Positions 7,158 to 34,400 of a stretch of 64,000 nt of DNA are shown piece by piece. Below the pieces are notes generated by a model, which did not search any database, was not told the origin of the DNA, and saw nothing but the letters and a program-made list of their open reading frames with translations. The stretch is taken from NCBI GenBank assembly GCA_043228905.1, contig JBHGNT010000004.1, positions 4,960,001-5,024,000 on the forward strand. The letters are read 5' to 3'. The position numbers and the translations under genes were made by a program. Numbering within the stretch: position 1 is the stretch's first letter; every line of letters starts with the position of its first letter. Source of the stretch: Azolla caroliniana (taxonomy: Eukaryota > Plantae > Polypodiophyta).

Positions 7158-7832
7158 TTTGTCATTCTAAAATTGTTTGTACCTTCATGGGGTCCATAGC
7201 ACTACCATATGATGATACAACATACCCTGAAAATTCTACTTAATTCTGGCCGAAACTACACTTTTCTAATTTTGCGTAGAGACCATATTCTCGGAGTCAA
7301 CGCAATACCTGCCAGGAGTAGTACTAAGACAAAGAAGTATTGTCATGAACAGTGTCGAGAAATATGCGGATTAATCTCCAGCCACAACCAAAGGGTAGAT
7401 CACTTGATGATGATCAAACACAGAAGAAATGGGAATGGGGGTAAGTATGCAAAACAGAAAGAGAATACACTGGATGTTAACGTGGAAAACCCTCAGAGGG
7501 AAAAACCACGGGAGTCCACAGACTCCAAACTATCACTATGTCAAATAAATACAACAGGAAGCACAGAGGCAACAACCTCTTGCTCACAGTCTTCGCCTAC
7601 CAGTGCTTACAACAGAGACACGATCTCTGTATATAACTCTCTCTCTCACTCTTACGCATTGTACAGAAGTTACACCAGTAACTCTATCATCATAACTATT
7701 AAGTTTGCCCTAGGTCATATTTATACTAATGTGACTTTCGGGCTATTTACAAATATAGCCCAGTGGGCTCTCTGGAACATATTTACATATATGTCCCTTC
7801 CATCCGATGAGAGGTTCTCACTAGACCTGCAA

Positions 7833-8104
7833 CATCCGGTTCTCACCAGGTCTTCCTTGCCGGGTACTCGTCATCCGGTTATCACCGGGTCTTCCCTGTC
7901 GGGTACTCGTCATCCGGTTCTCACCAGGTCTTCCTTGCCGGGTACTCCACATCCAGTTCTCACCGGGTCTTCCGTTGTCAGGTACTCCACATCCGGTTCT
8001 CACCGGTTCTTCCGTTGCCGGGTACTTCACATCCGGTTCTCACCGGGTCTTCCATTGTCGAGTACTTCACATCCGGTTCTCACCGGGTCTTCCGATGCCA
8101 AGCC
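7833..8104. repeat. 39-40 bp tandem repeat array (7 units) in Copia 3' LTR U3
   Basis: Unit CATCCGGTTCTCACCGGGTCTTCC(G)TTGCCGGGTACTYCA repeated head to tail. Confidence 0.92.
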
Positions 8105-11100
8105 TTCGTATCCCATCCGGAGGGACCAAGATCCTAACAAACTCCCCCTTCACTCCGGCATGGGATGCCTCGTCAATCCGATCCGCTTTCGACATGCGTT
8201 TAGCTTGTCAAGCGTCAGCACCTTGATCAGCATATCCGACCCGTTCTCCTTCGTGTGGATCTTCGTCAGCACGAACTCTCGGTCTTCTAATCGCTCCCGA
8301 ATCCAGTGGTACCTCCACTGGATGTGCTTTGTCCTAGAATGATACGTTGTGTTCTTCGCAAGGTGGATGGCACTTTGACTATCGCAATAGAGCCGGTATT
8401 CCTCTTGCCGGATCCCTAGTTCTTCGATGAAGTCCTTCATCCATAGTATTTCTTTGCCAGCTTCCACAGCCGTCATGTACTCCGCTTCTGTGGTTGACAA
8501 CGCAACCGTCTTCTGCAGCCTCAATTGCCACGAAATAGCTCCCCCCGCATATGTCATGATATATCCGGATGTTTACCAGCTGGTATCCGCATCAGCCGAC
8601 ATATCCGAATCGGTGAAACTGTCAAGTTGGGGTTTTTACCGGAGCCGAATCGAAGACACATACTTGAGGTGTCTTTCAAGTATCGGAGTATCCATTTTAC
8701 CACATTCTAGTGCTCCTTGCCGGGATTGCTCATAAACCGGCTCACTACTCCTACTGCATATCCGATATCTGGTCGGGTGCACACCATTGCGTACCTTAGG
8801 TTCCCGACGGCAGAGGCATATGGTATCTTCATCATATCCGCCTTCTCTGCCTTCGTCTTCGGGCTTTTCTTACCGGATAACATGCAGTTTGCCGGAAGTG
8901 TCGATCCGACCGGTTTCGCATCTGACATGTTGAACCGCTGAAGCACCTTTGTCACGTACTTCTCCTGTGACAACCACAATTGCTTCGTTGGCCGGTCCCG
9001 AATGATATGCATCCCCAGCATCTGTCTTGCCAGACCCAAGTCTTTCATTGAGAAGGTCCGGTTCAGGGCCTTCTTCAGTATCTGTATCTTGACTTGGTCA
9101 CGTCCGATGATCAACATGTCGTCCACGTACAAGAGGAGTATTAGGAAGTCTCCACCTTTGAACTTTTCACAAATACGCAGTGATCGGCCTACGTCTTGTG
9201 GTACCCTTGATCAGTCATGAAGGAACCGAACTTCCAGTACCATTGCTGGGGAGCTTGCTTCAACCCGTAGAGGCTCTTTTTTAACCGGCAAACCAGGTGC
9301 TCCTTCCCTTTCTTCACGAATCCCTCCGGTTGCTGCATGTAAATCTCCTCTTCGAGGTCACCATGGAGGAACGTCGTCTTGACGTCTAACTGCTCTACCT
9401 CGAGGTCCATGTTTGCCGCTATGCTCAGCACTGTCCGGATGGAAGTCATCTTTACTACCGAGGGAAATATCTCATCGAAGTCTACGCTCTTCTTATGCTG
9501 GAACCCCTTCACCATGATCCTGGCTTTGTACCTTAGAGGGTTGCCGGCATCTCCTAGTTTCAGCTTGTACACCCACTTGTTTTGGAGTGCCCTCTTTCCT
9601 TTTCGCAACTCCACCAATTCATATGTGTGGTTCTCATGCAAGGAATTCATCTCGTCCTACATGGCACTCAACCACTTGCGGCTATGGGTGTCATCCTTCG
9701 CTTCTTCAAAGCTTTCCGGCTCCCCCTCATCAGTCAGCAGCACATGCTCTGCATCCGGAAATCTCCAAGGGGCCCTTCTCTCTTTGAGAGGATATCTCCG
9801 TCTTTGGCTTTCGGCAACCAGCTCCTCTATTTGTTCTTCATCCGAATCCGATTCGGGGTCTTGGCTAGTTCCGGTTTCAGCTTCCTCTACTTCTTCTTCT
9901 GCCGATTCGGTATCCTCACCGTAACCGGCTGGTTCTTCGAGTGTCAACCGGATCTTAGCCGGGTGGGTCCGAATCTCATCGGAGCTCATTATCTTCTTCT
10001 CCGACTCCCAGTCGGCAAGAGTCTTGTCCTCCATGAAGATAATATCTCGGCTCCAGAAAACCTTCTTGTCTACCGGATCCCACACTCGGTATCCGAACTC
10101 ATCATCGCTGTATCCGAGGAATATGCATGGCCGGGTCTTTGGATCCAACTTTCCTCTCCGGTCCTTAGCAACATGCACGTACGCGAGACACCCGAACACC
10201 TTCAAATGCCGGTAGGACACTTCCTTAGCGGTCCACACCTTTTGCGGCGTGTCTCCATCCAAGGGCCCTCAGGGTGATCTGTTTATCACATACGTCGTTG
10301 TCGACAGCGCCTCAGCCCAAAACGTCTTGGGTAGTTTAGCATGTGCTAGCATACTCCGGACCCTCTCCATTATGGTCCGGTTCATCCTCTCGGCTAGCCC
10401 ATTTAGTTCCGGCGTCTTCGGCACAATAAATTCGAGCCGGATTCCCTTCGAGCGGTAGTACTCCTCGAATTGCCCCCGGTATTCCCCTCCGTTATCTGCT
10501 CGAACCGCCTTCAGCTTCCGTCTGGTTTCTCTTTCCACTCTTGCGTGGAGCTCCTTGAAGACGGATAACACCTGATCCTTCGTCTTCAATGGTGTGGCCC
10601 ACAGCCTCCTGCTGTGGTCATCTATGAACGTCACAAAGTACTGCGCTCCGACATGGGACTTCGTGTCCATTTGACACACATCGGTATGAACCAACTCCAA
10701 TGGTGCATTACATCTCATCGGTGGCCTTGATCAGAAGGAGGTCCGGTTTTGCTTACCGGCTAGGCAGTCGGTGCACCTCTCAAGATGCATGTTCTTCACC
10801 AGAATGAGGTTTTCATCGGCAAGCTTCTTCATCCCCTTCACGCTCATGTGACACAATCTCTTGTGCCACAGCTCACCGGTAGTGTCAGAAGCCACGTTCA
10901 CTTCTTCCGGGCATAATCGGGCATTAATCAGGTATAGGGTGTTGACCTTCCAGGCCCGAGCCACTATCAGGCTCCCTTTGCTGAATTTCATGACTCCGTT
11001 CCGGATGCTACTCGTGTAGCCTTCATCATCTAGCCGACCAGCTGATATCAGGTTCAGTCGAACCTCCAGAACATGTCGGACATCCTTCAGCAGCAGCTTG

Positions 11101-12455
11101 CATCCGGTTGGTGTTGTCAACCACACGTCTCCTATGCCGACAATTCGGCATGTGCCTTCATTCCCCATCCGGACACAGCCATGATCACTGGCTATGTAGG
11201 ATGAGAAGCATTTCCGGTCCGGGGTAAGGTGGAAGGACGCTCTAGAATCAACAACCCACGTTGTCTCGTCTCCGGCAAGGTTCAACTCACTCTCCTCGGT
11301 GATGAGCATCAACTCTTCTTCATTTGCCGTGATTGCCATCCTTCCCTTTCGGTCCGGTCCCCTCCGGTCTTTACTGTTCCGGTCCGGAGTCTGCTTCAAA
11401 TCGGTACCAGAGTCTTACCAGAGGGATAAACGTTTCCCTTCCGGCCCGGCGTTGCCCAAAGTAACAACCAACGTCTCCTAGCTATCTAGGAGGGAACCGA
11501 GCAGGAGCAGTGCTAGTACCTCATCGGCGAGAGGTACTTCCAATGATGTTGCCTGGTGGATCAGCCCCTGGAAGGCATTCATGTGCTCCGCCATGCTAGA
11601 GCCATCTTGGTACCGGAGTCTTACTAGCTTCCGAAGTACCGAAACCTGATTAACAACATTTTTGTTCTGAAACATAATGTTGATCTTCTCCCAAAGCTCA
11701 TGAGCCTTGCTCTCTTCATTGAAGTTGTTGTATAGGTTCATATCAATGAAGCACCGTATGTACGCCGTTGTCTTCATGTGCATCACCTCCCATATCGTGG
11801 CGTTGATTTTGTCTGGTCTCTTGTCGCCGAACTGAACCGGCAACCAAAGATCTTTAACCACGAGCATGTCCCTCATCTTCGACTTCCACACTGAGTAGTT
11901 GGAGCCGGTGAGCTTGAACATGCCTCCCAACGAATCGTCCATTTTTCTGTGTCGTTTCGCTCTGATACCAAATTTGTCGAGAAATATGCGGAATAATCTC
12001 CGGCCACAACCGAAGGGTAGATCACTTGATGACGATCAAACACAGAAGAAATGGGAATGGGGGTAAGTATGCAAAACAGAAAGACAATACACTGGATGTT
12101 AACGTGGAAAACCCTCAGAGGGAAAAACCACGGGAGTCCACAGACTCCAAACTATCACTATGTCAAATAAATACAACAGGGAGCACACAGGCAACAACAT
12201 CTTGCTCACAGTCTTCGCCTAGCAGCGGTTACAACAGAGACATGATCTCTGTATATCACTCTCTCTCTCACTCTTACGCATTGTACAGAAGTTACACCAG
12301 TAACTCTATCATCATAACTATTAAGTTTGCCCTAGGTCATATTTATACTAATGTGACTTTCGGGCTATTTACAAATATAGCCCCAATGGGCTCTCTGGAA
12401 CATATTTACATATATGTCCCTTCCATCCGATGAGAGGTTCTCACCGGGCCTGCAA

Positions 12456-12766
12456 CATCCAGTTCTCACCGGGTCTTCCTTGTCGGGTACTCGTCATCCG
12501 GTTATCACCGGGTCTTCCCTGTCGGGTACTCGTCATCCGGTTCTCATCGGGTCTTCCTTGCTAGGTACTCCACATCCGGTTCTCACCGGGTCTTCCTTGC
12601 TAGGTACTCCACATCCGGTTCTCACCGGGTCTTCCGTTGCCGAGTACTCCACATCCGGTTCTCACCGGGTCTTCCGTTGCCGGGTACTTCACATCCGGTT
12701 CTCACCGGGTCTTCCGTTGCCGAGTACTTCACATCCAGTTCTCATTGGGTCTTTTGATGTCGGGCC
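12456..12766. repeat. 39-40 bp tandem repeat array (8 units) in Copia 5' LTR U3
   Basis: Same unit as 7833-8104, with one extra copy. Confidence 0.92.
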
Positions 12767-13133
12767 TTCGTATCCCATCTGGAGGGACCGAGATCCTAAC
12801 AAATTATACTAAAACAGAGAAGGAATTAGTACTAAAAGATGAGGATTAGAACTAAGGGAGGTGTAGAACTCTCGAGGGAAGGAAAGAGTGAGTGAGAGAG
12901 AGAGAATGAGGATAACAAAAGATATATTATATTAAGGGAATATACAATAGCAGCTAGGAAGCTTAAGACTGGCGTTGAACCAATTTGGTTCAAAATAATG
13001 CCTTGTGCCTCCTTTTATAGTGTTCTCAGAAGTACTCCTGAAGTTTCTAGAATGTTCCAGAGAAATCTGGAATATACATCAATTTTCTACAGTAAAACCT
13101 AAATGAAAATAATATTCTTCGTATTACAATATA

Positions 13134-13187
13134 TAGTCTAATGGTCAAGAGCTCGACCCATGTAATATAAAGTCATGGGTTCGAGTC
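13134..13187 (+). promoter_or_regulatory. tRNA-like A-box/B-box cassette in chromovirus LTR, antisense to the element
   Basis: TAGTCTAATGG (13134) and GGTTCGAGTC (13178), starts 44 nt apart. Confidence 0.6.
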
Positions 13188-16100
13188 TTGCCATATCATG
13201 ACACTATCCCCCCCCTTGAAACGACGAGCGTCGCGAGTCGTTTTGGATTGAGGACCCGGTTTATCTCGATATTGACGATGGAAGTCTTCAAGAAGAGCAC
13301 GAGCATTGGTCACATTCTCTATTGGTTCCCAAGTATGCTCGTTGGGACTATATCCTAGCCAATCAACTAAATAGTAGAGCTTGTTGCGAACAATCTTGGA
13401 ATCGAGGATGGCGACAACCTCGTATTCAGGTCCATCTTCAAGCTCGATCGGGGTTTGAGGTTGTTTAATACGACCTGGGATGGTGCTGCCTTGATAGGGT
13501 TCGAGGAGAGAACTGTGAAACACTGGATGTATCCAAAGTTGTGGAGGTAGATCGAGACGAAAAGAGACATCATTAATTTTTCCGATAATACGGAAAGGAC
13601 CTAATCGCCGGTAATCCAACTTCTCGCATGGGCGAGTAGTCTTGATGTGTCGTCATAGTAGCCACACCCGATCTCCAATGTCAAAACTGGATGGAAGCCG
13701 ATGATGATCCGCGTAAACCTTGTGTGTTTGTTGAGCTTGTTGTAGATGAGTAGATAAATCCGCTTGTATCTTACGTAGCCATTCCAAACGATCCTCTATA
13801 CAAGGATTTGTAAGTAACTCTAGGGTTTCAAATACACACCACCGAGGGTGACAGCCTGTGTAAGCATAAAATGGTGTCACCTTTGTCGATGAGTGGACGG
13901 AGTTATTATACGCAAATTCGGCGAAGTGGAGAATATTCGCCCAGCCATCTTGATGATAGCTTAAAAAGCACCGAAGATACTGCTCCAGCGTTTGATTTGT
14001 TCGTTCTGCTTGGCCGTCTATTTGCGGATGGTAGCCAGATGAGATATTACAAATGACCTTAAACATTTTAAAGAGGTGCTTCCAAAACTTCAAGAAGAAC
14101 TAGGGTCCACGGTCACTAATGATACTATCGAGAAGGCCATGATGCCGACATACTTCACGCATGACAATTTCAGCAGTTTCTTCACTGGAGATTTCCTTAG
14201 TACATGGCAAGAAATGGGCCATCTTCATATATCGATCTACTACTGTTAAGATCGCATTGAATCCCTTAGAGACCGGAAGATCTGTGATGAAATCTAGGGC
14301 AATGGATTGCCATGGCTTGCTTGGAATTGGTAATGGTTCTAATAAACCATATGGATGATGCCTTGACATTTTTGCTCTGCAACATGTATCACAAGTCCGA
14401 ACAAAATCTTCGACAAATTGTTGCATATGAGGCCACCAAAAGGATCATTGTACTAAATCTAGTGTTTTATTACTACCAAAATGCCCAACTGTATATGTGT
14501 CATGACAATTTTGGACTACTTGAAGGTGACAAGTACCATTAGGAACATACAAGAGTTTCTTAAAGAATAGTAATCCATCATGACATTCGAATTGTCGATA
14601 GTTCGTACCTAGTTGTTGCGACTGTGAACAAGATGCTCGAGAGGGATCAATTTGTGCTAGAATGGCTTGAGCGAAAACATTTGTCTTCAAGTCCTCACGT
14701 ATGGTATCGATAACCTGGGAATCCAAGGGCATACCGAAGACTTGCGTTTCTTACAGTCGTGTCGGTCCCAAGATTACTTGCTTTTGGTTATCGAAAGCCG
14801 GCTCGCCGGGACGCGGTGCTAGATACGAACGCCGAGATAATGCATTTGCCTTCCCTTGTTGCTTCCCCGGACGATATGTAATTTTGAAGTCGAAACAAGT
14901 GAGGAATTGGGCCCACCGAGCTTGACATCGATTTAACACATGAGCATTCTGAAAGTAGGCAAGGTTTTTGTGATCACTGAATACGATGACTTGATGAGAA
15001 GGCCCCTCTAGAAAATGCCTCCATTACGTAAAAGAGTCCACTATTGCTAATAGCTCCTTATCATGAATTTCATAGTTTATTTCTGCGGCGTCAAACTTGC
15101 GTGAATGGAAAGCCACAGGATGTAGCTTCTCATCATCGCCTTGTTGAGACAGAATGCTACCCAAGGCAAAATCCGACGCATCTGCTTCAATGATGAATGG
15201 TTTCTTTGGATCAACATGAGCTAAAATAGGAGCTGATGTAAATGCCTTCTTAAGAATCTCAAAAGCAATGTCTGTTGCTTCAGACCAAACGAACGATTTT
15301 CCCTTCCTGGTAAGTTGTGTGAGAGGCAGAACAAGCTTTGAGTAATCCTATATGAACTTGCGGTAAAAATTGGCAAAGCCTAAAAAGCATTGCACATCTC
15401 ACAATGCACGCGAAGTTTGCCACTCTACCACCGTTTTAACCTTAGCTAGATCCATGGAGATGCCTTCCAAGGAAATGACATAGCCCAAAAATTCTACCTA
15501 GTTGCACCCGAAACTACATTTTCCCAGTTTTGCATAAAGACCATGTTCTCGAAGTCATTTTAGTACGAACAGTACATGAGAATCATGCTCTTCTTGGGTC
15601 TTTGAATAAACCAGTAGATCATCCAAATAGATGATCAAAAAATCATCCAAGCGATCTCGGAATATATCATTTGCCATGTGTTGGAAGACTGTTGGTGCAT
15701 TAGTGAGGCTGAATGGCATGACCGTATACTTGAAGTGCCCATATCTAGTGTGAAACACAATCTTCCATTCATCTCCTGGTCGGATCCGTACGAGGCTATA
15801 TGCTCCTCATAAGTCGATCTTTGTGAAGAACCTTGCACCATTGATCCATTCTAAAAGACTTGAGATACGGGGAAGTGCATACCTATTCCTGATGGTGACT
15901 TTATTCAACCCATGGTAATCTACGACGAGACGAAGTGATCCATCATTTTTCTTGACGAAGAAAATGGGTGCGCCGGCTGGAGATTTCGAATGTCGAATGA
16001 AACCATTTGCCAAATTCTCCTCTATATATGCTCGAAGGACTTCTAGCTCGATTGGTGACAAATTGTAGATCGGTCCTCATGGTGGCTCTTTTCCCAGTTG

Positions 16101-16748
16101 TAAATCGATGGGGCAATCATACGGTCGATGGTGAGGAAGCGTATTAGCTCATACTTTATCGAACACATCGACATAATGACGATACTTCTCTGGAAGTTGA
16201 ACAATGGACTCCTCTTTATTGATACTAGAGGGGTTTACTAATATTGCGAAGAGAAACATTTCTTCCTTGCGTCCTTCCTCACGCAACTGATGTAGCGAAA
16301 TGGTTGCAATCTTATGAGTAGATCCTCGGGTTTGTCGACACCGTATTTCTCTTGTTCTCCAATCTATGGCTGGGTTATGTAATTCGAACCATGGTAATCC
16401 CAAAACAATGGGATGTTCTAGGATACTAATTATATTAAATGATACTACACACACTAAGTTATCTAGGACAATATTAACAGGTTTTGACTCTTCTATAATA
16501 TTCCCGAAAGCAATGGGACGACCATCAATGACTACTATAGAGGTTGGACATGGGAGTTTCTTTAGGGATATTTGATGAGCTTGGGCAAAATTCCTATCCA
16601 TGAAGCAAGAGTTGGCTCTGGAATCTAAGAGTGTTAAGACATGTACTAGAGGAGTACTTTTAGTACTAACCATTACTTGAGCTAAGAACACATTGCTAAC
16701 TTGCTTAGAGGAAATGGAACCACTAATGGGTTGCACAGATCTAGGGTT

Positions 16749-16793
16749 GTCCAACCAAACGGCTCCTATTTTGGCTGGACTTAATCGTTTAAT
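16749..16793 (-). promoter_or_regulatory. Putative -1 ribosomal frameshift signal (gag to pol), chromovirus copy 1
   Basis: A TTA AAC, then 6 nt ending in the gag TAA, then an 11-bp stem-loop. pol is in the -1 frame. Confidence 0.75.
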
Positions 16794-17991
16794 TCTTCTT
16801 CTAGTTGACTAAGGATTTCAAATTTGTTTGAAAGGCTTGGGCTATTAGGACTATCAGACACACCTAAAGGAATAGACTCGGGTTTAGTACTATTAGTACT
16901 AGCGGTTATTTGATTTACCTTCCTTTTCGGCTGATGGGGGCAATTCACTGCAATATGCCCCAATCCACCACAATAAAGACATAATTGATTTGCCCTGCGT
17001 CGCTGCTTTTCTTCTTCCGATAGTGGTCTGCGGCGACGTGTGGTGTCGATTTCCATTGGAGTCGGAGTATTGGTTGAAGACGTATTGAATGACTCCCTTG
17101 GGAAAGGCTTTGCTACGATTGAAGCGTAGGTGGGCTCTGATCTTGTCCGTGGCATTTGGAACTGACATTCCGAACGTCGTTTGAAGAGGAGATTATCGCA
17201 TCGCACCGCACGACTGATTGCTTCTGTCAATGACTTTAAGAGTAAATCTTTAACATCATTACGTAGGCCAAAACGAAATTGCTCCATTAGTGCCTAGTCA
17301 TCCCAGAGAATATCAGTGGCGAGAAGACGGAAATCCGTAGCATAAGCCGAGGGCGGCCGCTCACCTTGGCGCAATCTTCGGATTTTGTTGATTGTTGTTC
17401 TAACACTGTCGGTATCTCCAAAACAAGCTTTAAACTTGGTAATAAACTCTTCGAAATTATTTAACAAGGGAGAGATTTTTTCTAACAAGGGGGCGAACCA
17501 TGCCAAAGTCGTGACACTAAGTAGAGTGCCGACTAGTCCTACTCGTGATGCATCGCTGGGATATCGAGAAGGATGCATTTGAATGACTAATTGTACATGA
17601 TTAAGGAATCATCTAAATTGCGATCGTGTTCCATCGAATTTCATGGGAAGGACAATCTTGGGTTCTTTATGAATCCCTTGCGTACTGGGTCCTTGTTGTT
17701 GCATCGCTACAAAGGTTGCTTCGAGTTGTTGCACGTGTACCACTAGTTCCCCATGTTGTTGTTGCGTCTGGTACTTTTCTAAGGAGATTTGTTAAAGATC
17801 CTCCAACAACCGTTGATTTTTTTGTTCCAAAGCAAGGAACTTCTCTTTCAAGCATTGCAACTCTGAGAAAACGGATTGATATTCTTGAGCGCTAACAGTG
17901 GCCATAGTATGAGAGAAAAGAGGAATAAGAGATTAGAATGAAGGGAGGGAGAAGTAAAAAGTTAAAGGAAGAGAAGGACGCAGAGACTATG

Positions 17992-18002
17992 TCGGTTCAA
18001 AC
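17992..18002 (-). promoter_or_regulatory. Non-tRNA (putative self-priming) primer-binding site
   Basis: GTTTGAACCGA follows the 5' LTR, lacks TGG, and is complementary to LTR sequence at 18230-18240. Confidence 0.65.
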
Positions 18003-19637
18003 TGTTAGGAGTAGTACTAAGATAGAGAAGTACTTTCAGGAACAGTACTAAAACATAGAAGGAATTAGTACTAAAAGATGAGGATTAGTACTAAGGGAGG
18101 TGTAGAACTCTCGAGGGAAGGAAGTAGTGAGTGAGAGAGAGAGATTGAGAGAGAGAGAGAATGAGGATAACAAAAGATATATTATGTTACGGGAATATAC
18201 AATAGCAGTTAGGAGGCTTAAGACTGGCGTTGAACCAATTTGGTTTGAAATAATGCCTTGTGCCTCCTTTTATAATGTTCTCGGGAGTACTGTTGAAGTT
18301 TCTAGAATGTTCCAGAGAAATGTAGAATATACATCAATTTTCTATGGTAAAACCTAAATGAAAATAATATTTTTCGTATTACAAGAGCTCGACCCATGTA
18401 ACATAAGGTCATGGGTTCGAGTCTTACCTGACGAACATGTTCATCATGCTCCTCTTGAATCTTCGAGTAGATTAGAATATCATCCAAGTAAACTATAGTG
18501 AAAATCTCGAAAAATATCATTCGCCATATGTTGGAAAACTTCAGGTGCATTCGTGAGACGGAATAGCATCACAGTATACTCAAAATGGCCATAGCGAGTG
18601 CGAAAAGTTGTCTTCCATTCATCCCCCGGGCGAATCTGAACTAGATTATATGCACCTCGAAGTTCTTAACTTTGTGAAATATTTTTCTCCATTGAGACGT
18701 TCCAAAAGATTCGGGATTAACAGTAGAGCATATCTATTCCGGATAGTCACTTTGTTTAACCCTTGATAATCCACGACCAACTGAAGAGTCCCATTCTTTT
18801 TCTTGACGAAGAAGATAGGTGCGCCCGCAGGGGATCTAGAATGCTGAATGAATCTATTTGCCATATTCTCATCAATATACTCCCGCAAAGTCTCTACCTC
18901 TACAAGGGCGAGATTATAAATCGGGCCCCATGGAGGTTCTTTCCTTGGTTGTAAGTCAATAGGGCAGTCATATGGTTGATGCTCTGGCAATGTATCGGTC
19001 TTCACTTATCAAAGACATCTGAGAACTCTTTGTATTTCTCTGGTAGTTTAATGTCCGCTTCATGTAAAGTGGATGATGGATTTACTACTATTGCGAAGAC
19101 AAACATGGCCTCGTTCCCCCCTTCCTCACACAATTGTCGTAGAGAGATGGTCGATAACTCAGGGGATCTAGTATCAGATGTCGGAGAGAGGGATGCAGGG
19201 TTTGTGCTTTTTTCCCGGGTCTCCTCAATTGTTCTTTTCATCCAATCAATCTTCGGGTTATGGAGTTCAAACCAAGGGAGACCTAGCACTATTGGGTGTT
19301 CCGGACTGCGAATAATGTTGAAAGAGATTATGCTTGCCAAATCGCCAAGAACTATCCGAATTGGCTCGGACTCCTTGACTATATCTCCTGATGCTATGGG
19401 ACGGCCATCAATGATTCTTGCGGCTACTGGGCTTGGGAGCTTATTCAAGAGGATGATTTGTGACAAGGCATATTCACAATCCATGAAACAAGAGTTGGCT
19501 CCAGAATCTAGGAGGGCAGAAGCTAGGACTCGATGACATGTAGATGTGGTAAGCTCGACTTGTGTAGAAAAAACTCGACTCACTTGATTTGATGAAATGG
19601 AACCACGACTAGGAACTAACTCTACATAGCTAGGATG

Positions 19638-19682
19638 GTCCAACCAAATGGCTCCTATTTTGGCCGGACTTACTCGTTTAAC
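19638..19682 (-). promoter_or_regulatory. Putative -1 frameshift signal, chromovirus copy 2
   Basis: G TTA AAC GAG TAA followed by hairpin GTCCGGCCAAA...TTTGGTTGGAC. Confidence 0.75.
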
Positions 19683-21113
19683 ACATCCTCCAATTGGCTC
19701 AAGACATCGAATCTATTTTCATGGCATGGACTATGAGGCTTACTTATGTTAATAGAGGTAACAATGGAACTCGAAGTAGTGTTGTCATGGGCACTTACTT
19801 GGTATACTTGACGTCTAGGTTTATGTGGACTATTTACAACTATATGTCCTAGACCGCCACAATATAAGTATAGGCGATGCGCTCGACGATGTTGCTTCTC
19901 AGCATCTGATAAAGGCCCACGACGTTGTGTCGACTCTATTTCCATCAGAGTTGGGCCATCCCTTGTAATGGGTTTGGAAACTTGTGGAGGCGTTGCGACT
20001 ACGGAAGCGTAAGTCTGTTCTGGTTGGCGGTGTAACATTTGTTGGCGCTCAGAACATCGCTCAAATAGGCGATTATCACATCGCACATCTCGACTAATGA
20101 CCTCTGTAAGCAACTTTGGATCTTCAAGGAAAGTAAGAAGGAGATCTTTGACATCATTTCGCAAACCTTGACGGAATTCATCCCAAGGGATATCGCATGC
20201 CAAGAGACGAAAATCAGCTGTGTAAGCCAACGCGGGACGATCTCCTTGTCGGAGCCTTCGAATCTTGTTTATCATTGTCCTAGTACTGTCAGTGTCTCCG
20301 AAACTAGCTTGAAACTCCTTAACAAATGCCTTGAAATCCTCCAACAACGGTGATTTCTTCTCGAGAAGTGGTGCGAACCATGCTAACACCATACCGCATA
20401 GCAAAGTTCCCACTAATCCCACATGAGCAGCGTCTGTTGGATACCGATTGGGATGTAGCTGAATAACCAGACAAACTTGATTCAAAAAACCTCGAAATAA
20501 AGACCTTGTACCATCAAACTTGGTGGGGAGGCTAATCTTTGGTTCTTTAGGGCAGTTCTGAACCCCTAATGCTTGTTCTCATAATGATAATATAGTTGCC
20601 TCAAGTTGGTGACCGTTGTGATAATTCTTCATACTGTTGAGCTTTTTCGACACTCAAATGTTGTAGGTCTCCGAGTAGCCTTTGATTTTCATGCTCTAAT
20701 GCCACAAATTTATTCGTGAGCATGTCGAGCTCAAAAAGAACACGCAAATACTCCTATTTGGTCACGGACTCCATAGCTTACGAGGCGAGAGGAGAAGGAA
20801 GAAGAGAACTTGTTAGGGTTTGTGGAAGAGGAAGAAATGAAAAAAATTGGTTCAAACTGTCAAGAGAGAGAGAGAGAGAGAAAGAGAGAAAGAAAGGGAA
20901 ATGTTGTATTGCAGAGTAAAATGGATTACAAGGGGTGAACATTCTAGGTCATCCTAGAATGTAGAATAATCTAGAAGGTTTCTAGAGTATTCTAGAAGGT
21001 TCTAGTGTATAGAACACTCTAGAATATTCTAGGTTATTCTAGAATGTAGAGTAATATAGAATATCCCTATGATATTAGATTATATATTCTAAAAACTATA
21101 CATATAAGAATAT

Positions 21114-21168
21114 TAATACCATGGTTAAGGATTTGACATGTGTACAACAAGGTCATGGGTTCAAATCC
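21114..21168 (+). promoter_or_regulatory. tRNA-like A-box/B-box cassette in chromovirus copy 2 LTR
   Basis: TAATACCATGG (21114) and GGTTCAAATCC (21158), 44 nt apart. Confidence 0.6.
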
Positions 21169-21286
21169 TTTCGAGGCATGATGTGAGTGTGATCATGACA
21201 AAGTCTATTTCATTAGGCATGTCTGATAGTTCTAATAGCCCAAGCCTATCAAACAAATTTGAAGTCATTAGTCAACTAGAAGAAGA

Positions 21287-21331
21287 GTTAAACGACTAAG
21301 TCCAACCAAAATAGGAGTCGTTTGGTTGGAC
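21287..21331 (+). promoter_or_regulatory. Putative -1 frameshift signal, chromovirus copy 3
   Basis: G TTA AAC GAC TAA followed by a perfect 11-bp stem GTCCAACCAAA/TTTGGTTGGAC. Confidence 0.78.
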
Positions 21332-23749
21332 AACCCTAGATCTGTGCAGCCCATTAGTAGTTCCATTCCCTTTAAGCAAGTTAGCAATGTCTTCCTAGCT
21401 CAAGTAACAATTAGTACTAAAAGTACTCCTCTAGTACATGTCTTAGCACTCCAAGATCCTGGAGCTAATTCTTGCTTCATGGATAAGAATTTTGCCCAAG
21501 CTCATCAGATATCCTTAAGAAAACTCCCTTGCCCAACCTCTGTAGTAGTCATCGATGGTCGCCCCATTGATTCGAAATATCGCAGAAGAGTCAGAGCCAA
21601 TTAGTGTTGTCCTAGATAATTTGGCATGTGTAGTATCATTCAATATAATTAGTAGTCCAAAACATCCCGTTGTTTTGGGGTTACCATGGTTCGAGTTACA
21701 CAATCCAAACATAGATTGGAGAACAAGAGAAATCCGATATCGACAACCTCGAGAATGTACTCATAAGGTTTCAACCATTTCGCTACATACTGCGTGAGGA
21801 AGGACGCAAGGAATCAATGTTTGTATTCACAGTATCAGTGAAACCTTCCAGCACCACAGTATCATTCGACATTCAAAATCTCCAGCCAGCGCCCCCATTT
21901 TCTTTGTCAAGAAAAAGGATGGATCACTTTGTCTCGTTGTGGATTACAATGGCTTGAATGAGTTCACCATCAGGAATAGGTATGCACTTCCCCTTATCTC
22001 GAGTCTTTTAGAATGGATTAATGGTGCAAAGTTCTATCCGTGACAATTCTTCACAAAGATCGACTTATGAGGCGCATATCACCTCGTACGGATCCAACTA
22101 GGAGATGAATGGAAGACCGCTTTTCGCACCCGATACGGGCACTTCAAGTATACGGTTATGTCATTCGTTCTCACCAATGCGCCAGCAATCTTCCAGCACA
22201 TGGAAAATGATATATTCCGAGATCTCTTGGATATCTGTTTGATCATCTATTTGGGTGATCTACTAGTTTATTTGAAGACTCGAGAAGAGCATGATTCTCA
22301 TGTACTATTAGTACTAAAACGACTTCGAGAACATAGTCTTTATGCAAAACTAGAAAAATGTAGTTTTGAGTGTAACCAAGTGGAATTTCTTGGCTATGTC
22401 ATCTCCTTGGAAGGCATCTCTATGGATCCAACTAAGGTCAAAACTGTGGTAGAGTGGCAGACTCCCCGTTCATTGCGAGATGTGCAATGTTTTTTAGGCT
22501 TCGCAAATTTCTACCGCAAGTTTATACAGGATTACTCAAAGCTTATTTTGCCTCTCACACAGCTTACCAAGAAGGGGCAGTGGTTTGTTTGGTCTAAGGA
22601 AGCTGACACGGCTTTTGTAAGTCTTAAGAAAGCATTTACATCAACTCCTATTCTAGCTCATGTTGATCCAAAAAAACTGTTCATCATGGAGGCAGACACG
22701 TCGGATTTCGCCCTTGGTAGCACATTTCCTACCTTGTACTAAGGCAATCACTAGTGAAGAAACCGCTGAAATTGTCATGTGTGAGGTATTTCGGCATCAT
22801 GGCCTCCCGGATAGTATCATCAGCGACCGTGGACCTCAATTCATCTCGAAATTCTGGAAGCATTTCTTCAAAATGCTCAAGGTCACTTGTAACCTCTCCT
22901 CCAGCTATCACCCTCAAAAAGACAGACAAGCAAAACGAACAAATCAAACGCTGGAATAGTATCTTCGGTGTTTCCTAAGCTATCAACAAGATGATTGGGC
23001 GGATATTCTCCACTTTGCCGAATTTTCTTATAATAACTCTATCCACTCATCGGCTAGGATTACACCATTTTATGCTTATACATGCTATCATCCTCGATGG
23101 CGTGTGTTCGAAACCCCGGAGTTACCCACAAATCCTCGTGCAAAGGATCATTTCGAGCGGCTATGCAAGATATAGGCAAACCTATCTACCCATTTACATC
23201 AAGCTCAACAAACACATAAGGCTTATGCGGGTCGTCATCGGCTTCCATCCTGTTTTGACATTGGAAATCGGGTATGGAAATTACGACGACACATCAAGAC
23301 TACTCGACCATGCGATAAATTGGATTATCGACGATTAGGTCCTTTCTATATTATCATAAAAGTTAATGATGTCACTTTTCGTCTTGATCTACCTTGGACG
23401 CAACTATGGTTACATCCGGTTTTTCATAGTTCTCTTCTCAAACCCTATCAAGAGAACACTATTCTGAATCGTATTACACCACCTCCAACCCCGATCGAGC
23501 TTGAAGCAGGACTGGAGTACAAAGTTGATGCCATCCTCAATTCCAAGATTGTTCGCAACAAGCTCTACTATTTGGTCAATTGGCTAGGCTATAGTCCAAG
23601 CGAGCGAACCAGTCGAGAATGTCACAAATGCTCGAGCTCTTATTGAGGACTTCCATCGACAATATCCTGACAAACCAGGTCCTCCATCTAAGACGCCTTG
23701 TAACACTCATCGTCTTAAGGGGGGGTTAGTGTCATGATATAGCATGGTA

Positions 23750-23821
23750 TGGCTTCAAAAGGATTCGAACCCATATTCTTGTGTCACTTGGGTTGAAGCC
23801 CTACCATTAAGCTATAGCTAT
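23750..23821 (-). promoter_or_regulatory. tRNA-like A-box/B-box cassette in chromovirus copy 3 LTR
   Basis: Minus strand GCTATAGCTTAATGGTAGGGC...ATGGGTTCGAATCCTTTTGAAGCCA: consensus A-box and B-box 43 nt apart, with a plausible D-stem. Confidence 0.7.
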
Positions 23822-24157
23822 ATATTGTAATAAGAAAAATATTATTTCCATTTATTATTTCACTAGGAAATCCATGTATATTCTAGATTTCTCTTGAACA
23901 TTCTAGAAATGTCAAGAGTACTCCTAAGCATACTATAAAAAGAGGCACGTGGCATTATTGAGAACCAGTTTGGTTCAACGCCAATCTTAAGCCTTCTTGT
24001 TATTCTTGTATATTCTCTTCATATAATATAATATATCGTTTGTTATCATCATTCTCTCTCTCTCTCTCTCCTTCTCTCCAGAATTCGACACCCTCTTTTC
24101 CTCTTAGTAATAATCCTCATCTCTAGTACTAATTCCCTCTCTGTTTTATTCCTGACA

Positions 24158-25921
24158 ATAGGGATGCTCTTAATAATGATAAAATCTACTATCAAGATGG
24201 TAAGATTCACTTGGTCGAGACTCGACAACCACTCTTACTCAACTTCAGGCAAGGTGGAATGAAAAAGCTAATGAAAGATGTTGAGATAAAAACAATTCAA
24301 GTGATACAATCTGTGACAACCTTACGGTTGCGCATAGAAGACTCATAATAATGGTGGATCTAGCTTTTGACAAGATTTGATGGATTATGCAAGAAAATGG
24401 AAGGTTCGAGTGGATGAATTAAAAAGAGTGGGTGATAAAATACGAAACTTCACTGGATGGAATGATCCAGTAGACGCACTATCAGCATTCGTCCAAGTAA
24501 ATGCACAAGATGTACTGGTGGAAGGGAAGCAGAAGAGGGTTGAGGAGGTTGATCCGGCAAAAAGGCATGACACACAAGAACAAGAGAGAAGAGAGATGGA
24601 AAAGGATGCTCCTGAGTCAAAAGAAGTTGATAAAGTAAAAGGGAACACATACCCAACTTTCAAGCTTGCTTCGAGCTTAGAAGTCGTGATGGACATAAAA
24701 CATGTGATGGAAGAAGTTACGAGAGGGTCTGCAACAACACTCCAAGATTTGGATCGTGGCACCATTAATGTTGCAAGTTTAAAGAAGATAAATTATTTTG
24801 GGAATCATGAAGGGAATAGGAGTCATTATATAAGGAACCATTGGGCTCGAGCAACAACGAAGACACCTACAAAAATTGGGGAGCAACATATTCCTTGTAT
24901 TTCTTTGATCAATCATGGATCCGAGATTAACATTATGTCATCGGAATTTTACACTCAAGGATGGTGGCCGATCAATAAGAATCATGGGTGGAAGATAAGA
25001 GTTGTGACAGAGATGATAGAGGATCTGTTCAAAGCATGTCCCAATCTCAAGGTAACAATTGAAGATGTGTCGGTGGATCAAAATTTCTTTGTGCAGGATC
25101 AATCAACCTACCCTGTCATCCTTGGTCAACCATACATCACCGCAGTAAGGATGGAAACAAAGGTGATTAATGATGGTTCGGCTTTCACAAGGATCAAAAG
25201 TCAATATGGAAGAAAGACTACCCAATTCTTAACCGTGAGGCCTAACCATGAAAGAAACAAAAAATACTTGAGGGAACATCCAGTTTGGAAAGGGAATGAA
25301 GAGTTTTTCCAAGATTTTGGATGAACTTTGCACAACCAATGTGCAAGTTCAGAGGGGGTGGGTATCGTGAAGAAAATGCTTCATGATATAAAAATAAACT
25401 CAAATATTAGATCAAGTGACATTCAAAACACTTGAACCCACAACCTCGTATACCAAATATGAAGTATATACCATTACAATAAGTTATTTTTTATAATTAT
25501 ATTTACTTCATCATACTTATGTCATGTTTAACTTCATACATTAGAGCTTAGATGAGTATGATGGCTATCATGCATCACATGCATGCCATGCACCCTCATA
25601 TCATCATATGCATGAGAGAACCTATAAAGAGAGGCAAGGAATCAAGGGATTAATGAGGGAAAAGAAGAAAGGAATCAAGAGAAAATCATAAAATAAAAAT
25701 CAACAAGAAGAAGTTAGCTCAATCGGGAAGTGTTTTGTGTTTAGAAGTGGAAGTCGAGGGTTCAATCCAGAATTTGGTAGAGAATGGTTTTATCTTGTGA
25801 TCAAGCATTGTAAAGTTGGTAAAATCTTATATTCTTAATATAAATCATGTTCATATCATATACTCTTGCTTCTTAAATCATACATTGTCTCTGTCTCTTA
25901 TATATGATCGTCTCTCTCACA
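24158..25921 (+). mobile_element. Gypsy remnant: gag-protease ORF, PPT and probable 3' LTR (about 25367-25921)
   Basis: ORF 24377-25324 has a retropepsin-like LINHGSEINIM...VILGQPY motif. Purine tract AGAGGGGGTGGG at 25351-25362 is followed by an LTR-like region with TATA at about 25623 and a pyrimidine-rich end. LTR boundaries are approximate. Confidence 0.7.
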
Positions 25922-26429
25922 CACATTACTTTTAACTCTTCTTCTTCCTATCCTTAATCTTTATAACATCAACGCACAAGTCTTATAAAAATTTAACCAA
26001 CTCCTTTTAACCTTAGTCTCTACGACTTCGCCGCACGAACCACAACTATCCCGATAACGTCCTCATTAATAATCAACCTTGGCCTAATCAAATTCTTAAA
26101 ATGAGAACTACATAACTCAATAACCTTGATTGGGTCTACAACAACGTCATTCACTATCTTAATTTGCACCACATTTGAACAAGAATATGATGGTCTTAAT
26201 CCTTGAAAAATATATGAGATTGCGATTGATTATCTATAAATCCCTCTTTTAACTAGTGTACTCTTGCCTTATGATAACTTTGACAATACAAATTCTTCAC
26301 AATGTCTTGTAGTTGCACTTGAAGATCCAAAAGCTCTACAACATGCAAATGATTCATCAATAGTACATTGCATCGTGTAAAAATACGTGAAAACTTATCA
26401 ATCATTTGCTTACGTCTCTCTCTCTAGAA

Positions 26430-31400: not shown

Positions 31401-34400
31401 TGCCCCTTAGGTTATGAGCTTCTACAAGTTATACTCCCCAAAGCTTGCATGGTACATTCTCCTAGGGAGTATCTCACCCTTGTTCACCACCATTTGAACA
31501 GACATAGCTAAGGTCCACATTAAAGATGATAATGTGAGTGTTTTTATCGACCAATAAGCTCATAATGTGCGGGTATGTAATGGCCAAGTTCCAACGTGCC
31601 AATCAGAGTGTAAAAGTTTTATTGTAAGAAAAGACTTATTATACAAGAGGGGTATTCTGGTAATAACCGAAAGCTTAGTGGTATATTTTTCTGTGTTTTG
31701 CGTCAATCCGCAGGCATACCAGCTCCATCGCGGTTGGAAATTATGGTGTTCCTGTGGTGGTTTCTGGATTCAATTACGGTTTGGCTAGCGGGATGGCTCC
31801 AGGCGCTCGGTATGCATCTTTTCTTCCAACATTTAGGGTTTAAGGTTTAAGGACTTAGTTGAAAAACAAATTAAATAGTGCACAAAAGAAATAGGGACGT
31901 AGGGCTTAAATTCAAAAAGAGATTAAGGGTTTAGGCTTTAGTGGAAAAAAAGAGACCGAGGATTTAGGGTTTACTGTTAAAAAGTGATTTAAGCATTTAT
32001 CATTTTAGTGGTGAAAAATAGGAGATGAAGGATTTGGGGTTCATTGACAAAAAGTAAATGAAGAATTTAGGGTATATTGACAAAAAGTAAATGAAGAATT
32101 TAGTGTTTATTGACAAAAAGGAGATTAATGGTGTAGGGCTTAGTGAAAAAAAGGAGATTAAGGATTTAGAATTTTGAGCAAGGTAAACATGGAAACACGA
32201 AGTATTTAGATACTTATACACTGTGTGTGTGTGTGTGTAATTATGATGAGGAAACATGTGCATGTGGTTTATGATGACATCTGCCTCGTAATTCATTGAT
32301 GCCAGACTTGCGGTCTACAAGGTTGTATACAGGGATGGAGGCTACCTATCTGATGTGCTTGCTGGAGTTGATCAGGCAAGTAAATCATTCATTGATGCTG
32401 GGTTATGGGCAAAGTTCTAATTTCATTTTATGTAGGTTTCCATGTATTCAAGAAACATAAACAAGATTGTTTATGGCTAATTAAGAGATGTCTATTAGAT
32501 GGTGATTAATTATTAATCAGAAGGTGGATCTTATTAACCAAGTCATTGCATGCAAAGCATAGGGATGGATTAAAACCAAGCAATAATAGAGAGAAAATTC
32601 AGGAACTCTAAACACTAAATCCTAAGAATTAATCTAATGTGACCTCATTGATTGGCATTCGGCCTTCTCGGTGAAAAATAATTATGTGAACTTGCGTAGA
32701 ATTTTCTTTTTGTTAACACTTTAGATATTGTTTTTGGAGCTACAATTTTGAAATTATGTCAGTTGAACATGAGTCGAGAATATTAGAATACGTCATGATT
32801 CAACCTGAAGGGGCATAATCAAAGAAATTGTAGAACTTATGAGAGTGCTTTCTCTGTGAGATTGATAGTAGTTCTGTAATTGAAATAAGGATAAAATTCA
32901 CAGAGGTCATATTCTCATGTAAAACATTTCGGTTGTACAGGCCATACAAGATGGAGTGAATGTATTGAGTCTGTCCTTGGGATCTACATCAAGTGCTTTG
33001 GGAGTGCCATTTTTGAGTACATTTGATCTCGCCCTCCTTTTCGCTGTGAAGGCAGGGGCTGTAGTTGTGCACGCTGCAGGAAATAATGGCCCCTCGCCGA
33101 TGACCATGAATTCCTTTGGTCCATGGATATTGTCAGTTGGAGCCTCTACAACAGATCGCTCCTATGTGAATCCAGTCATCCTTGGAAACAAACAAGAGTT
33201 CATTGGAAGTGGTTTATCAAGTATATCTCTTTCTGCCTATGATTGATTACTAGAGACTGATGTATATCTTTCCCATATAGAATGTATCAGAATGCTTGTC
33301 AGCTCTAGGTTTAATCCTACCACACAATTTCTGCTCACAATCTAAAGAGGTTTATTGAAATTTTCCAAAAAGATATTCACATATGGGCCTTGCATCTCAT
33401 TGGTGTTGGTTTGGTTTGGTTTAACCTACAGGTGGGACACCAGGAAAGAGGGAATATTCCATGATTTACTCGAAAGATGCATATATCACTGAAAGCACAG
33501 ATACATTCGATCCAGAGTATTATTCATACTGCCCTGATGCCGAAGCATTCAATAAGACTCTTGTACGAGGGAAAATTCTCATATGCAACTTCTTACAGCT
33601 GTTTACTGGAGGGGCTGGAATCGAGATTGATGATGCGATTGTGACAGCCAAGAAATTAGGTGCAGTAGGGCTTATTATTGTTTCCCCTGAGATTGCTGAA
33701 TCTTCTCAACAGCCTAAATCAACAATTTTGGATCCTCGCCCATACTCTCTACCAACCACTTTTATCACAGATACAGATGCATCCTTGGTGAGTAGTCATG
33801 TGTGTGTGTGCATATCTGCATGCGTGTATTTTGTATGTGTGTGTATCGCTAAAATATGTGTGCAAGAAACACCATTTTAACACATTTCTTTCCATTGGGC
33901 GGTGGTTATTTTCAGATTATAATGGATTATTACAATCAAAACACGCAAAGGGATGACAGCAAGAAGGTTACACACTTTGGAGCAACAGCTTGGATCAAAG
34001 ATTCTAGAATAGCGGTATTTAAATCTGTGGCCCCAGAAGTTGCCTCATATTCATCAAGGGGTCCAGTGTATGCAAACACTGCAAGTTCAATGCAATCAGA
34101 TATCCTAAAACCAGATATATTAGCTCCGGGTAGTCAAATTTGGGGTTCATGGACTCCCACTGGTATTGATTCTGTTGGATTTAAAGGTCAGTTATACAGT
34201 TCTTATCAAGAAAACTATAAAACTATAAATGCTAAATTGATTTACAGCTAGGTTAAATATGGTACTATCCACACTTATTGAGTTTTTGTCTCTATAGGAG
34301 AGCGATTTGCTATGCTCTCGGGAACAAGCATGGCCGCGCCACATATTTCTGGGATTTCTGCATTACTCATGCATGCTCATCGCGGATGGAGCAATGCTGC

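What the first reader, a model, noticed from the sequence alone, without database searches (positions are those of the whole stretch)
13134..23821. Chromovirus LTRs carry an outward-facing tRNA-type Pol III (A-box/B-box) cassette at the U3 tip
Seen: three diverged LTRs each have an A-box and a B-box within about 15-85 bp of the U3 terminus, antisense to the element. They are TAGTCTAATGG/GGTTCGAGTC (13134/13178), TAATACCATGG/GGTTCAAATCC (21114/21158) and TAGCTTAATGG/GGTTCGAATCC (23814/23771, minus). Box starts are 44, 44 and 43 nt apart. The sequence between boxes has diverged and the anticodon and acceptor arms do not pair. Known: this is the T8-to-G52 spacing of tRNA genes; A/B boxes recruit TFIIIC, which can drive Pol III or act as a chromatin barrier; Cassandra TRIMs carry 5S rRNA Pol III promoters in their LTRs. 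Inference: boxes and spacing are under selection as a TFIIIC insulator shielding the LTR promoter from flanking heterochromatin, or as an antisense Pol III promoter. I do not know of a description of this in chromoviruses.
Basis: partly seen in the sequence, partly recalled or inferred. Interest (0 to 1): 0.85.

Follow-up and report, generated by a model that had tools for sequence, protein, structure and literature searches.

The report
Outward tRNA promoter in moss retrotransposons
The end-repeats of one group of protein-coding plant jumping genes, likely from a moss, keep the two promoter boxes of a tRNA gene facing outward at their tip while the DNA around them has diverged to near background, so host RNA polymerase III factors likely bind there, where they would shield the element's own promoter from silencing.

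Summary
Confirmed and extended. All three A/B-box pairs lie at the stated places, antisense at the U3 tip of chromovirus LTRs with Tcn1 features. The cassette occurs in 17 of the 99 fetched loci (plus one with a B box only), all in one clade, and in none of 45 other scorable LTRs. Across 10 LTR families B-box positions are 85% identical and A-box positions 73%, against 31-41% for spacer and flanks and 38% for synonymous sites; spacing is 43-44 nt in 10 of 10. It is therefore under selection. There is no cloverleaf, and the elements self-prime, so a DNA-level TFIIIC/Pol III promoter fits best; a chromatin barrier is my preferred role but is untested. Closest known: Helenus/Cassandra (non-autonomous, sense in the examples seen) and foamy-virus U3 Pol III units. 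Ten literature searches found no description; this scan noted similar cassettes in fungal genomes. New variant; interest 0.62.

The parts
12802..13203 (-). Element A 3' LTR (U3 tip at 13203); its last ~45 nt of U5 are displaced to ~7310-7352 by a nested LTR element at 7353-12801
   Evidence: 29 and 42 contigs with unrelated flanks end at 13203
13134..13144 (+). A box, antisense to element A
13178..13188 (+). B box, 44 nt from the A-box start
13094..13114 (+). AT-rich stretch 20-40 nt upstream of the A box (predicted TFIIIB platform); mean 88% AT in 10 families vs about 60% at 100-140 nt
13013..13019 (-). TATA box of the element's own Pol II promoter, back to back with the cassette (114-208 nt from the A box in 11 LTRs)
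12974..12985 (-). Predicted R start that serves as self-primer; complementary to the PBS
13204..13219 (-). Polypurine tract of element A
13173..13652 (-). End of pol: Tf2-type SH3 and chromodomain with aromatic-cage residues (P0001)
17994..18002 (-). Self-priming PBS of element A, directly after the 5' LTR
18003..18429 (-). Element A 5' LTR, tip truncated; B box at 18414-18424 kept, A box removed by a 19-nt deletion at 18384/18385
20858..21200 (-). Element B 5' LTR (unalignable to A and C by blastn; TATA/R-start segment deleted); PBS at 20849-20857; gag follows
21114..21124 (+). A box, antisense to element B
21158..21168 (+). B box, 44 nt from the A-box start
23176..23646 (+). End of pol of element C: SH3 and chromodomain (degenerate)
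23730..24157 (+). Element C 3' LTR, complete, after PPT 23716-23729
23804..23814 (-). A box, antisense to element C
23761..23771 (-). B box, 43 nt from the A-box start, followed at once by T4
24371..25324 (+). Element D: end of a DUF4100-type Gag/protease ORF of a different Ty3/gypsy lineage; no RT or chromodomain follows
25363..25968 (+). Putative 3' LTR of element D (after purine tract 25351-25362; TATA 25623; ends in CA); single copy, boundaries inferred
25428..25481 (-). Antisense A+B cassette in the putative U3 of element D (spacing 43; matrix score 32.6, not in the training set)
25715..25769 (+). Second, sense A+B cassette downstream of the TATA of element D (generic score 17/17, spacing 44)

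Best explanation
A tRNA-type A-box/B-box pair sits outward-facing at the U3 tip in one clade of self-priming chromoviruses and is conserved across diverged families; it likely works as DNA, binding host TFIIIC and loading TFIIIB/Pol III, and this complex would act as a barrier that keeps the element's own Pol II promoter open in the heterochromatin where its chromodomain is predicted to place it. Shown: the boxes, their position, orientation, spacing and conservation, the AT-rich stretch upstream, the back-to-back TATA promoter, the aromatic-cage chromodomain and the R/PBS complementarity. Inferred: origin from a tRNA gene or tRNA-derived SINE captured once in the clade's ancestor and copied to both LTRs by reverse transcription; TFIIIC binding; short outward Pol III transcripts as a by-product; barrier function. 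The outward orientation would keep Pol III from running into the TATA box, and the 5' LTR tip is the side that faces flanking chromatin.
For: Pairwise identity over 10 families: B-box defined positions 0.85, A-box defined positions 0.73, A-box N positions 0.40, mid-spacer 0.31-0.41, 60 nt upstream 0.37, 11 nt downstream 0.33; 4-fold sites of the adjacent pol 0.38 (random 0.30). Spacing 43-44 nt in 10 of 10 families while the B-box-to-tip distance ranges 16-49 nt. Leave-one-out matrix scores 22-43 bits, with 0.3 hits >=20 expected in 552,527 shuffled bases. Present in 17 loci of one branch (SH-aLRT 85, quick tree) that holds no scored negative; absent from 45 of 45 scorable LTRs outside it. Not explained by coding, cloverleaf or priming. 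AT content peaks (0.88) 20-40 nt upstream of the A box; TFIIIC recruits TFIIIB to an AT-rich region within 50 nt upstream (PMC13578239, passages). Group I chromodomain of MAGGY targets H3K9me heterochromatin (PMC3350952, passages); the moss chromovirus RLG1 lies in heterochromatic islands yet is transcribed (PMC7466625, passages). TFIIIC sites as barriers: reference titles only, otherwise recalled.
Against: No binding, chromatin or transcription data. G10 of the A box is kept in only 4 of 10 families. Positions outside the textbook boxes are also conserved (tRNA 44-51: 0.68; 20-24: 0.61), and fixed spacing is stricter than TFIIIC is thought to need (recalled), which leaves room for an RNA-level role. 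45 other chromovirus LTRs do without it. A barrier can be built from a B box alone (recalled), so the kept A box fits transcription as well. One window LTR lacks the A box, as does L022. All 18 positive loci carry contig names of one series, so host breadth is unknown and the families are related. A B2 SINE boundary in mouse limits open rather than closed chromatin and lowers neighbouring expression (PMC8136502, abstract), the opposite direction.
Confidence: 0.45

Rival explanations
1. The cassette is a Pol III promoter whose selected product is a short antisense RNA (about 70-125 nt, over the U3 tip and PPT) that regulates the element: copy-number control, small-RNA source or plus-strand priming control.
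For: Both boxes and the AT platform are kept. A T4 follows the B box within 1-53 nt in 7 of 10 families. No T4 lies inside the predicted transcribed part in 10 of 10 (2.8 expected, P(0)=0.027). Family A folds into a ~20-bp hairpin (z -7.3). Foamy viruses make Pol III miRNAs from U3 (PMC3993851, passages).
Against: A4 runs are depleted too (1 vs 3.0 expected), so the T4 signal is not strand-specific. Terminator position is not conserved and 3 of 10 families have none nearby; folding z-scores of the other 9 families are -1.9 to +1.1; own-family hairpin halves pair barely better than mixed pairs (p=0.07). The transcribed sequence between and after the boxes is not conserved.
Confidence: 0.2
2. 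The motif works on the sense RNA: U3 carries the complement of a host tRNA's D and T loops and anneals to a packaged tRNA to aid dimerisation or strand transfer, like the 3' half of the bipartite Ty3 primer site.
For: In Ty3 the T-arm and D-arm of tRNA-iMet pair with sites in U3 (PMC5371799, passages). This would explain the antisense orientation, fixed spacing and conserved positions 44-51. A tRNA-like stretch in HIV-1 U3/R is recalled; one search did not retrieve it.
Against: These elements are predicted to self-prime: R start and PBS are complementary over 9-12 nt in L004, L012, L013, L029 (imperfect in L024) and co-vary in L004 while the B box does not. Departures tolerated by G-U pairing (G>A 3 of 85, T>C 2 of 136) are no commoner than disruptive ones (C>T 6 of 34, A>G 5 of 68). 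Conservation is punctate, skipping positions 12-13, as a protein site would.
Confidence: 0.1
3. TFIIIC bound at the LTR end serves integration or nuclear positioning (tethering cDNA or copies to Pol III sites), or the cassette acts as a landing pad that draws Pol III-targeting elements.
For: The B box lies 16-49 nt from the integrase-bound end. Ty3 integrates at Pol III genes (search listing). Unreviewed notes on fungal genomes describe insertions upstream of LTR-borne boxes.
Against: No insertion upstream of an A box in the 3 window LTRs; loose contig ends at 13115 resemble LTR variants and do not start with an LTR terminus. No tRNA gene in the window or in 60 of 99 loci scanned. The variable distance to the tip argues against a fixed integrase contact.
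Confidence: 0.1
4. A neutral relic of an old SINE insertion, or a site for some other protein that merely resembles the boxes.
For: tRNA-like cassettes occur in other repeats of these genomes (L007:300-540; element D); Repbase LTRs often contain tRNA-like pieces (PMC10886601). Some copies lack the A box.
Against: Boxes stay at 0.73-0.85 identity while synonymous sites are near saturation (0.38) and the spacer has decayed; both boxes, in order and at tRNA spacing, are kept in 10 of 10 families.
Confidence: 0.1

Closest known systems
Helenus / TRIMp3 (Kojima 2024, PMC10886601; main text parts 1-4 of 6 read, plus supplement passages)
   Same: tRNA-derived sequence in the LTR, conserved at boxes A and B, cloverleaf mostly lost; proposed to come from a SINE insertion; function inferred from conservation only.
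   Different: Helenus is non-autonomous (311-1263 bp), tRNA-primed, and in the two LTRs seen in the supplement the tRNA is in sense, to transcribe the element. Here the hosts are protein-coding chromoviruses with a TATA promoter and self-priming PBS, and the cassette faces outward. The paper argues autonomous elements must use Pol II and analysed only TRIMs, though it says 'not a few LTRs' in Repbase contain part of a tRNA.
Cassandra and Ajax TRIMs (as described in PMC10886601)
   Same: Pol III internal promoter carried in LTRs and conserved over long times.
   Different: 5S rRNA type (box A, IE, box C), non-autonomous, drives the element's own RNA.
Foamy-virus U3 Pol III miRNA units (PMC3993851, passages)
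   Same: Autonomous LTR retroelement with A/B-box Pol III units in U3 alongside a Pol II promoter.
   Different: There the product is a hairpin miRNA with a terminator, shown by experiment; here hairpin and terminator are not conserved across families and nothing is shown to be transcribed.
Ty3 bipartite primer-binding site (PMC5371799, passages)
   Same: U3 of a Ty3/gypsy element carries sequence complementary to tRNA D and T arms.
   Different: Ty3 is primed by tRNA-iMet; these elements are predicted to self-prime and the conserved positions follow the promoter consensus.
tDNA/TFIIIC barriers of yeasts and B2 SINE boundaries (reference titles in PMC13578239; abstract of PMC8136502; rest recalled)
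   Same: A/B-box DNA acting on chromatin rather than through its RNA; mobile in the case of B2.
   Different: Host loci or SINEs, not a fixed part of an LTR; B2 boundaries are tied to CTCF; not tested here.
Tcn1 chromoviruses of mosses and club mosses (PMC6317226, PMC2864245, PMC3350952; passages)
   Same: Aromatic-cage chromodomain, Tf2-type SH3, predicted self-priming.
   Different: The passages seen describe no tRNA-type boxes in their LTRs; only one sub-branch of the relatives fetched here has them.

Membership tests
Tcn1 chromovirus (Ty3/gypsy) | Chromodomain at the end of pol with aromatic cage | tested here: met
   Pfam Chromo E 1e-14 and SH3_Tf2-1; Y..W..Y visible in P0001
Tcn1 chromovirus (Ty3/gypsy) | Self-priming PBS, no tRNA PBS | tested here: met
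   PBS complementary to the R start in 4 of 5 loci, imperfect in the fifth, with covariation in L004; criterion from PMC6317226
Tcn1 chromovirus (Ty3/gypsy) | Placement with REXdb Tcn1 references on RT/RH/INT trees | not testable with these tools
   No reference set on hand; tree holds unnamed loci only
Tcn1 chromovirus (Ty3/gypsy) | Host is a moss or club moss | tested here: inconclusive
   A 56% relative clusters with a Ceratodon purpureus protein; best named hits of the neighbouring DUF4100 ORF are Physcomitrium; the host itself is unnamed
Type 2 (tRNA-type) Pol III promoter | A box and B box in order at tRNA spacing | tested here: met
   G10 is degenerate in 6 of 10 families
Type 2 (tRNA-type) Pol III promoter | AT-rich/TATA-like region within 50 nt upstream | tested here: met
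   88% AT at -20 to -40 from the A box; criterion; LTRs are AT-rich in general
Type 2 (tRNA-type) Pol III promoter | Oligo-T terminator downstream | tested here: inconclusive
   T4 within 53 nt in 7 of 10 families, position not conserved
Type 2 (tRNA-type) Pol III promoter | TFIIIC/Pol III occupancy or transcription | not testable with these tools
   No ChIP or stranded RNA reads available
Helenus / TRIMp3 | tRNA-like sequence in the LTR conserved at boxes A and B | tested here: met
Helenus / TRIMp3 | Short non-coding TRIM | tested here: not met
   gag, RT, RNase H, SH3 and chromodomain lie beside these LTRs
Helenus / TRIMp3 | Sense orientation able to transcribe the element; tRNA PBS | tested here: not met
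   Antisense in all 20 chromovirus copies aligned; self-priming PBS
tRNA gene | Cloverleaf with acceptor and anticodon stems; passes ARAGORN/Rfam | tested here: not met
Ty3-type 3' primer site in U3 | Element primed by a tRNA | tested here: not met
Ty3-type 3' primer site in U3 | Contiguous complementarity to one host tRNA | not testable with these tools
   No host tRNA set held; the indirect wobble test was negative
Foamy-virus-type Pol III miRNA unit | Conserved hairpin followed by a terminator | tested here: inconclusive
   Strong hairpin in 1 of 10 family representatives; no covariation

The most novel reading that the evidence does not exclude
Heterochromatin-seeking retrotransposons carry their own portable TFIIIC/Pol III insulator at the LTR edge, and two unrelated Ty3/gypsy lineages in this host (the Tcn1-like clade and a DUF4100 element, whose promoter is bracketed by two divergent cassettes) arrived at it independently; this would explain how elements that land in silent chromatin stay transcribed.
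Probability: 0.3. Interest if true: 0.82.

Novelty: new variant of a known kind. Interest (0 to 1): 0.62.

Why it matters
How chromoviruses that insert into heterochromatin remain expressible is unexplained. A conserved, two-box site at the LTR edge gives a precise, mutable candidate in plants where gene targeting is routine (mosses). High-copy families would also scatter thousands of potential TFIIIC sites through the genome (8,428 contigs of one run lie on an 899-nt piece of family A), with possible effects on Pol III factor titration, chromatin borders and tRNA gene mis-annotation. It extends small-RNA-gene capture in LTRs from non-coding TRIMs to protein-coding elements, in the opposite orientation.

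Tried and rejected
Viral-contig scans gave 0, 1 and 0 loci, so element D's family could not be sampled. Expression: no RNA holder listed; only contigs could be laid, which show neither strand nor start. Coding overlap as the cause of B-box conservation: rejected. Cloverleaf or shared hairpin: rejected as general features. B box as partner of the self-primer: rejected, it does not co-vary with R/PBS in L004. T4 depletion: not strand-specific. Landing pad: no sign. One negative locus, L046, had a borderline generic score (14, spacing 41, shuffle p 0.005) but no matrix hit >=15; counted as negative. Rows dropped: of 99 loci, 3 had no chromodomain match and 37 had no located LTR or under 110 nt of it; 4 of those 37 (L002, L005, L056 full; L022 B only) proved positive on inspection and the other 33 are unscored. 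Weak matrix hits (15-20) inside coding or other DNA match the null (5.6 expected at >=15). The careful tree did not finish; the quick tree is cited and no clade test was run. A likeness of the cassette to an arginine tRNA is recalled and untested. Two papers that matched 'box B' were false hits. Supplements of PMC6317226 (element tables) were not read and might list such elements.

Full report
Observation. The three box pairs are at the coordinates given, with spacings of 44, 44 and 43 nt. They lie in three LTRs: the 3' LTR of a minus-strand element A (tip 13203), the 5' LTR of a minus-strand element B (tip 21200) and the 3' LTR of a plus-strand element C (tip 23730). Each reads antisense to its element and points at the tip. 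Perfect generic A+B pairs number 3 in the window against 0.01 expected. They are not tRNA genes: ARAGORN finds none, the best Rfam score is 18.8 bits against 29, and acceptor and anticodon arms pair at background.

The elements. The pol ends encode a Tf2-type SH3 and a chromodomain with its aromatic residues. The PBS follows the LTR directly and is complementary to the R start about 38 nt below the TATA box: 12 nt in L004, L012 and L013, 9 in L029, imperfect in L024, with both sides changed together in L004. Aromatic cage plus self-priming are the marks of Tcn1, found in mosses and club mosses (PMC6317226, passages). A 56% relative clusters with a Ceratodon protein. The host is therefore likely a moss; this is inferred, and no reference tree was possible.

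Relatives. No genome is held. I fetched 99 loci by the chromodomain protein alignment, not by the boxes. Of 59 with a located LTR start, 14 carry the antisense pair in the first 150 nt and 45 do not. Among the 37 short or unlocated ones, three more carry the full pair and one a B box only; 3 loci had no chromodomain match. On a quick tree all 19 positive rows included (L056 was too short) lie on one branch (SH-aLRT 85) with three unscored rows and no negative. All positives carry contig names of one series, so host range is unknown; family A itself lies in runs of at least three coded organisms.

Selection. I took one copy from each of 10 LTR families, whose U3 beyond the cassette aligns at 46-65% except A with C at 74%. 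Mean pairwise identity: B-box defined positions 0.85, A-box defined 0.73, A-box N positions 0.40, mid-spacer 0.31-0.41, upstream 0.37, downstream 0.33; 4-fold sites of the adjacent pol 0.38 over 36 pairs of 9 families (random 0.30), amino acids 0.66. Anchoring on the B box alone, the A-box consensus scores 70 of 80 at 43-44 nt and 28-50 at the 24 other spacing pairs, while the B-box-to-tip distance ranges 16-49 nt. The pol frame stops before the B box in 10 of 11 copies followed. Against a pure textbook promoter: G10 is kept in 4 of 10, and tRNA positions 44-51 and 20-24 are also conserved (0.68, 0.61). The families share ancestry, so they are not independent samples, but saturation of neighbouring sites makes neutral retention unlikely.

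DNA or RNA. No cloverleaf and no shared fold: family A has a strong hairpin (z -7.3), the other nine representatives do not, and the hairpin halves show no clear covariation (p 0.07). A tRNA-annealing role as in Ty3 U3 (PMC5371799, passages) is weakened by self-priming and by the lack of G-U bias among departures. The layout instead matches a complete type 2 promoter: AT content peaks at 88% 20-40 nt upstream of the A box, where TFIIIB is placed (PMC13578239, passages), and the Pol II TATA box lies 114-208 nt further in, back to back. A T4 follows within 53 nt in 7 of 10 families, at no fixed place.

Mechanism. I put about 0.75 on TFIIIC-type binding and 0.45 on the whole barrier model. Group I chromodomains can direct integration to H3K9-methylated chromatin (PMC3350952, passages), and the moss chromovirus RLG1 sits in heterochromatic islands yet is transcribed (PMC7466625, passages). 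A TFIIIC/TFIIIB complex between flank and promoter, facing away so that Pol III does not cross the TATA box, would keep that promoter open. TFIIIC barriers are known from yeasts (reference titles; details recalled). None of this was measured. An antisense RNA product (0.2), tRNA annealing (0.1), an integration or landing-pad role (0.1) and a relic (0.1) remain.

A second lineage. Right of element C lies the end of a DUF4100-type Gag/protease ORF, a purine tract and a putative LTR (25363-25968) with no blastn similarity to the chromovirus LTRs. It holds an antisense cassette at 25481-25428 that scores 32.6 on the matrix built without it (0.3 hits >=20 expected) and a sense cassette at 25715-25769 below its TATA. 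It is a single copy and its family could not be sampled, so convergence is a lead, not a result; tRNA-like cassettes also occur in another repeat (L007:300-540), so SINE debris is an alternative for this copy.

Comparison. Helenus is the closest described case: tRNA-derived boxes in LTRs, but in short non-coding, tRNA-primed TRIMs, in sense in the two LTRs I saw (PMC10886601, main text parts 1-4 of 6 and supplement passages). That paper notes that other Repbase LTRs contain tRNA parts but did not study them. Foamy viruses carry proven Pol III units in U3 (PMC3993851, passages). Ten searches found no description of an outward A/B-box cassette in chromovirus LTRs; the library lacks most subscription papers and Repbase notes. 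Earlier unreviewed notes of this scan report tRNA-like boxes in fungal Gypsy and chromovirus elements on other DNA and nothing like this sequence.

Verdict. Real, selected, clade-specific and apparently undescribed in this form, with function untested: a new variant of small-RNA-gene capture in LTRs. Interest 0.62.

Noticed in passing
window 25363-25968: Putative LTR of a DUF4100 Gag/protease-only element with two divergent tRNA-type cassettes bracketing its TATA box (25481 -, 25715 +).
   Followed up: partly
window 12962-12988; L001, L008, L010-L013, L029: The predicted R start is the second arm of a conserved small palindrome (GAACC...GGTTC), so the self-primer has an upstream inverted partner as well as the PBS; in L004 the downstream arm changed with the PBS.
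   Followed up: partly
window 13145-13192: In families A and C, and in LTR B and L008, the stretch after the A box is a near inverted copy of the B-box region, giving a hairpin of up to about 20 bp; absent from other families.
   Followed up: yes
L007:300-540: Another repeat with two or three degenerate A/B-box cassettes in both orientations, suggesting tRNA-derived SINE pieces are common in these genomes.
   Followed up: no
window 20937-21076: LTR B has an array of short TTCTAGAA-type palindromic repeats in U3 (also L003, L004, L014) and has lost its TATA/R-start segment.
   Followed up: no
window 7310-24157: Stack of nested and deleted elements: an LTR element (7353-12801) split U5 of element A; A's 5' LTR tip is fused to the RT of element B; B's 5' LTR abuts the gag of element C.
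   Followed up: partly
window 31909-32176: Tandem 33-nt repeat with telomere-like TTTAGGG motifs.
   Followed up: no
L081-L098: Eukaryote-type chromovirus fragments sit in 18 contigs of prokaryotic genome assemblies, likely contamination.
   Followed up: no
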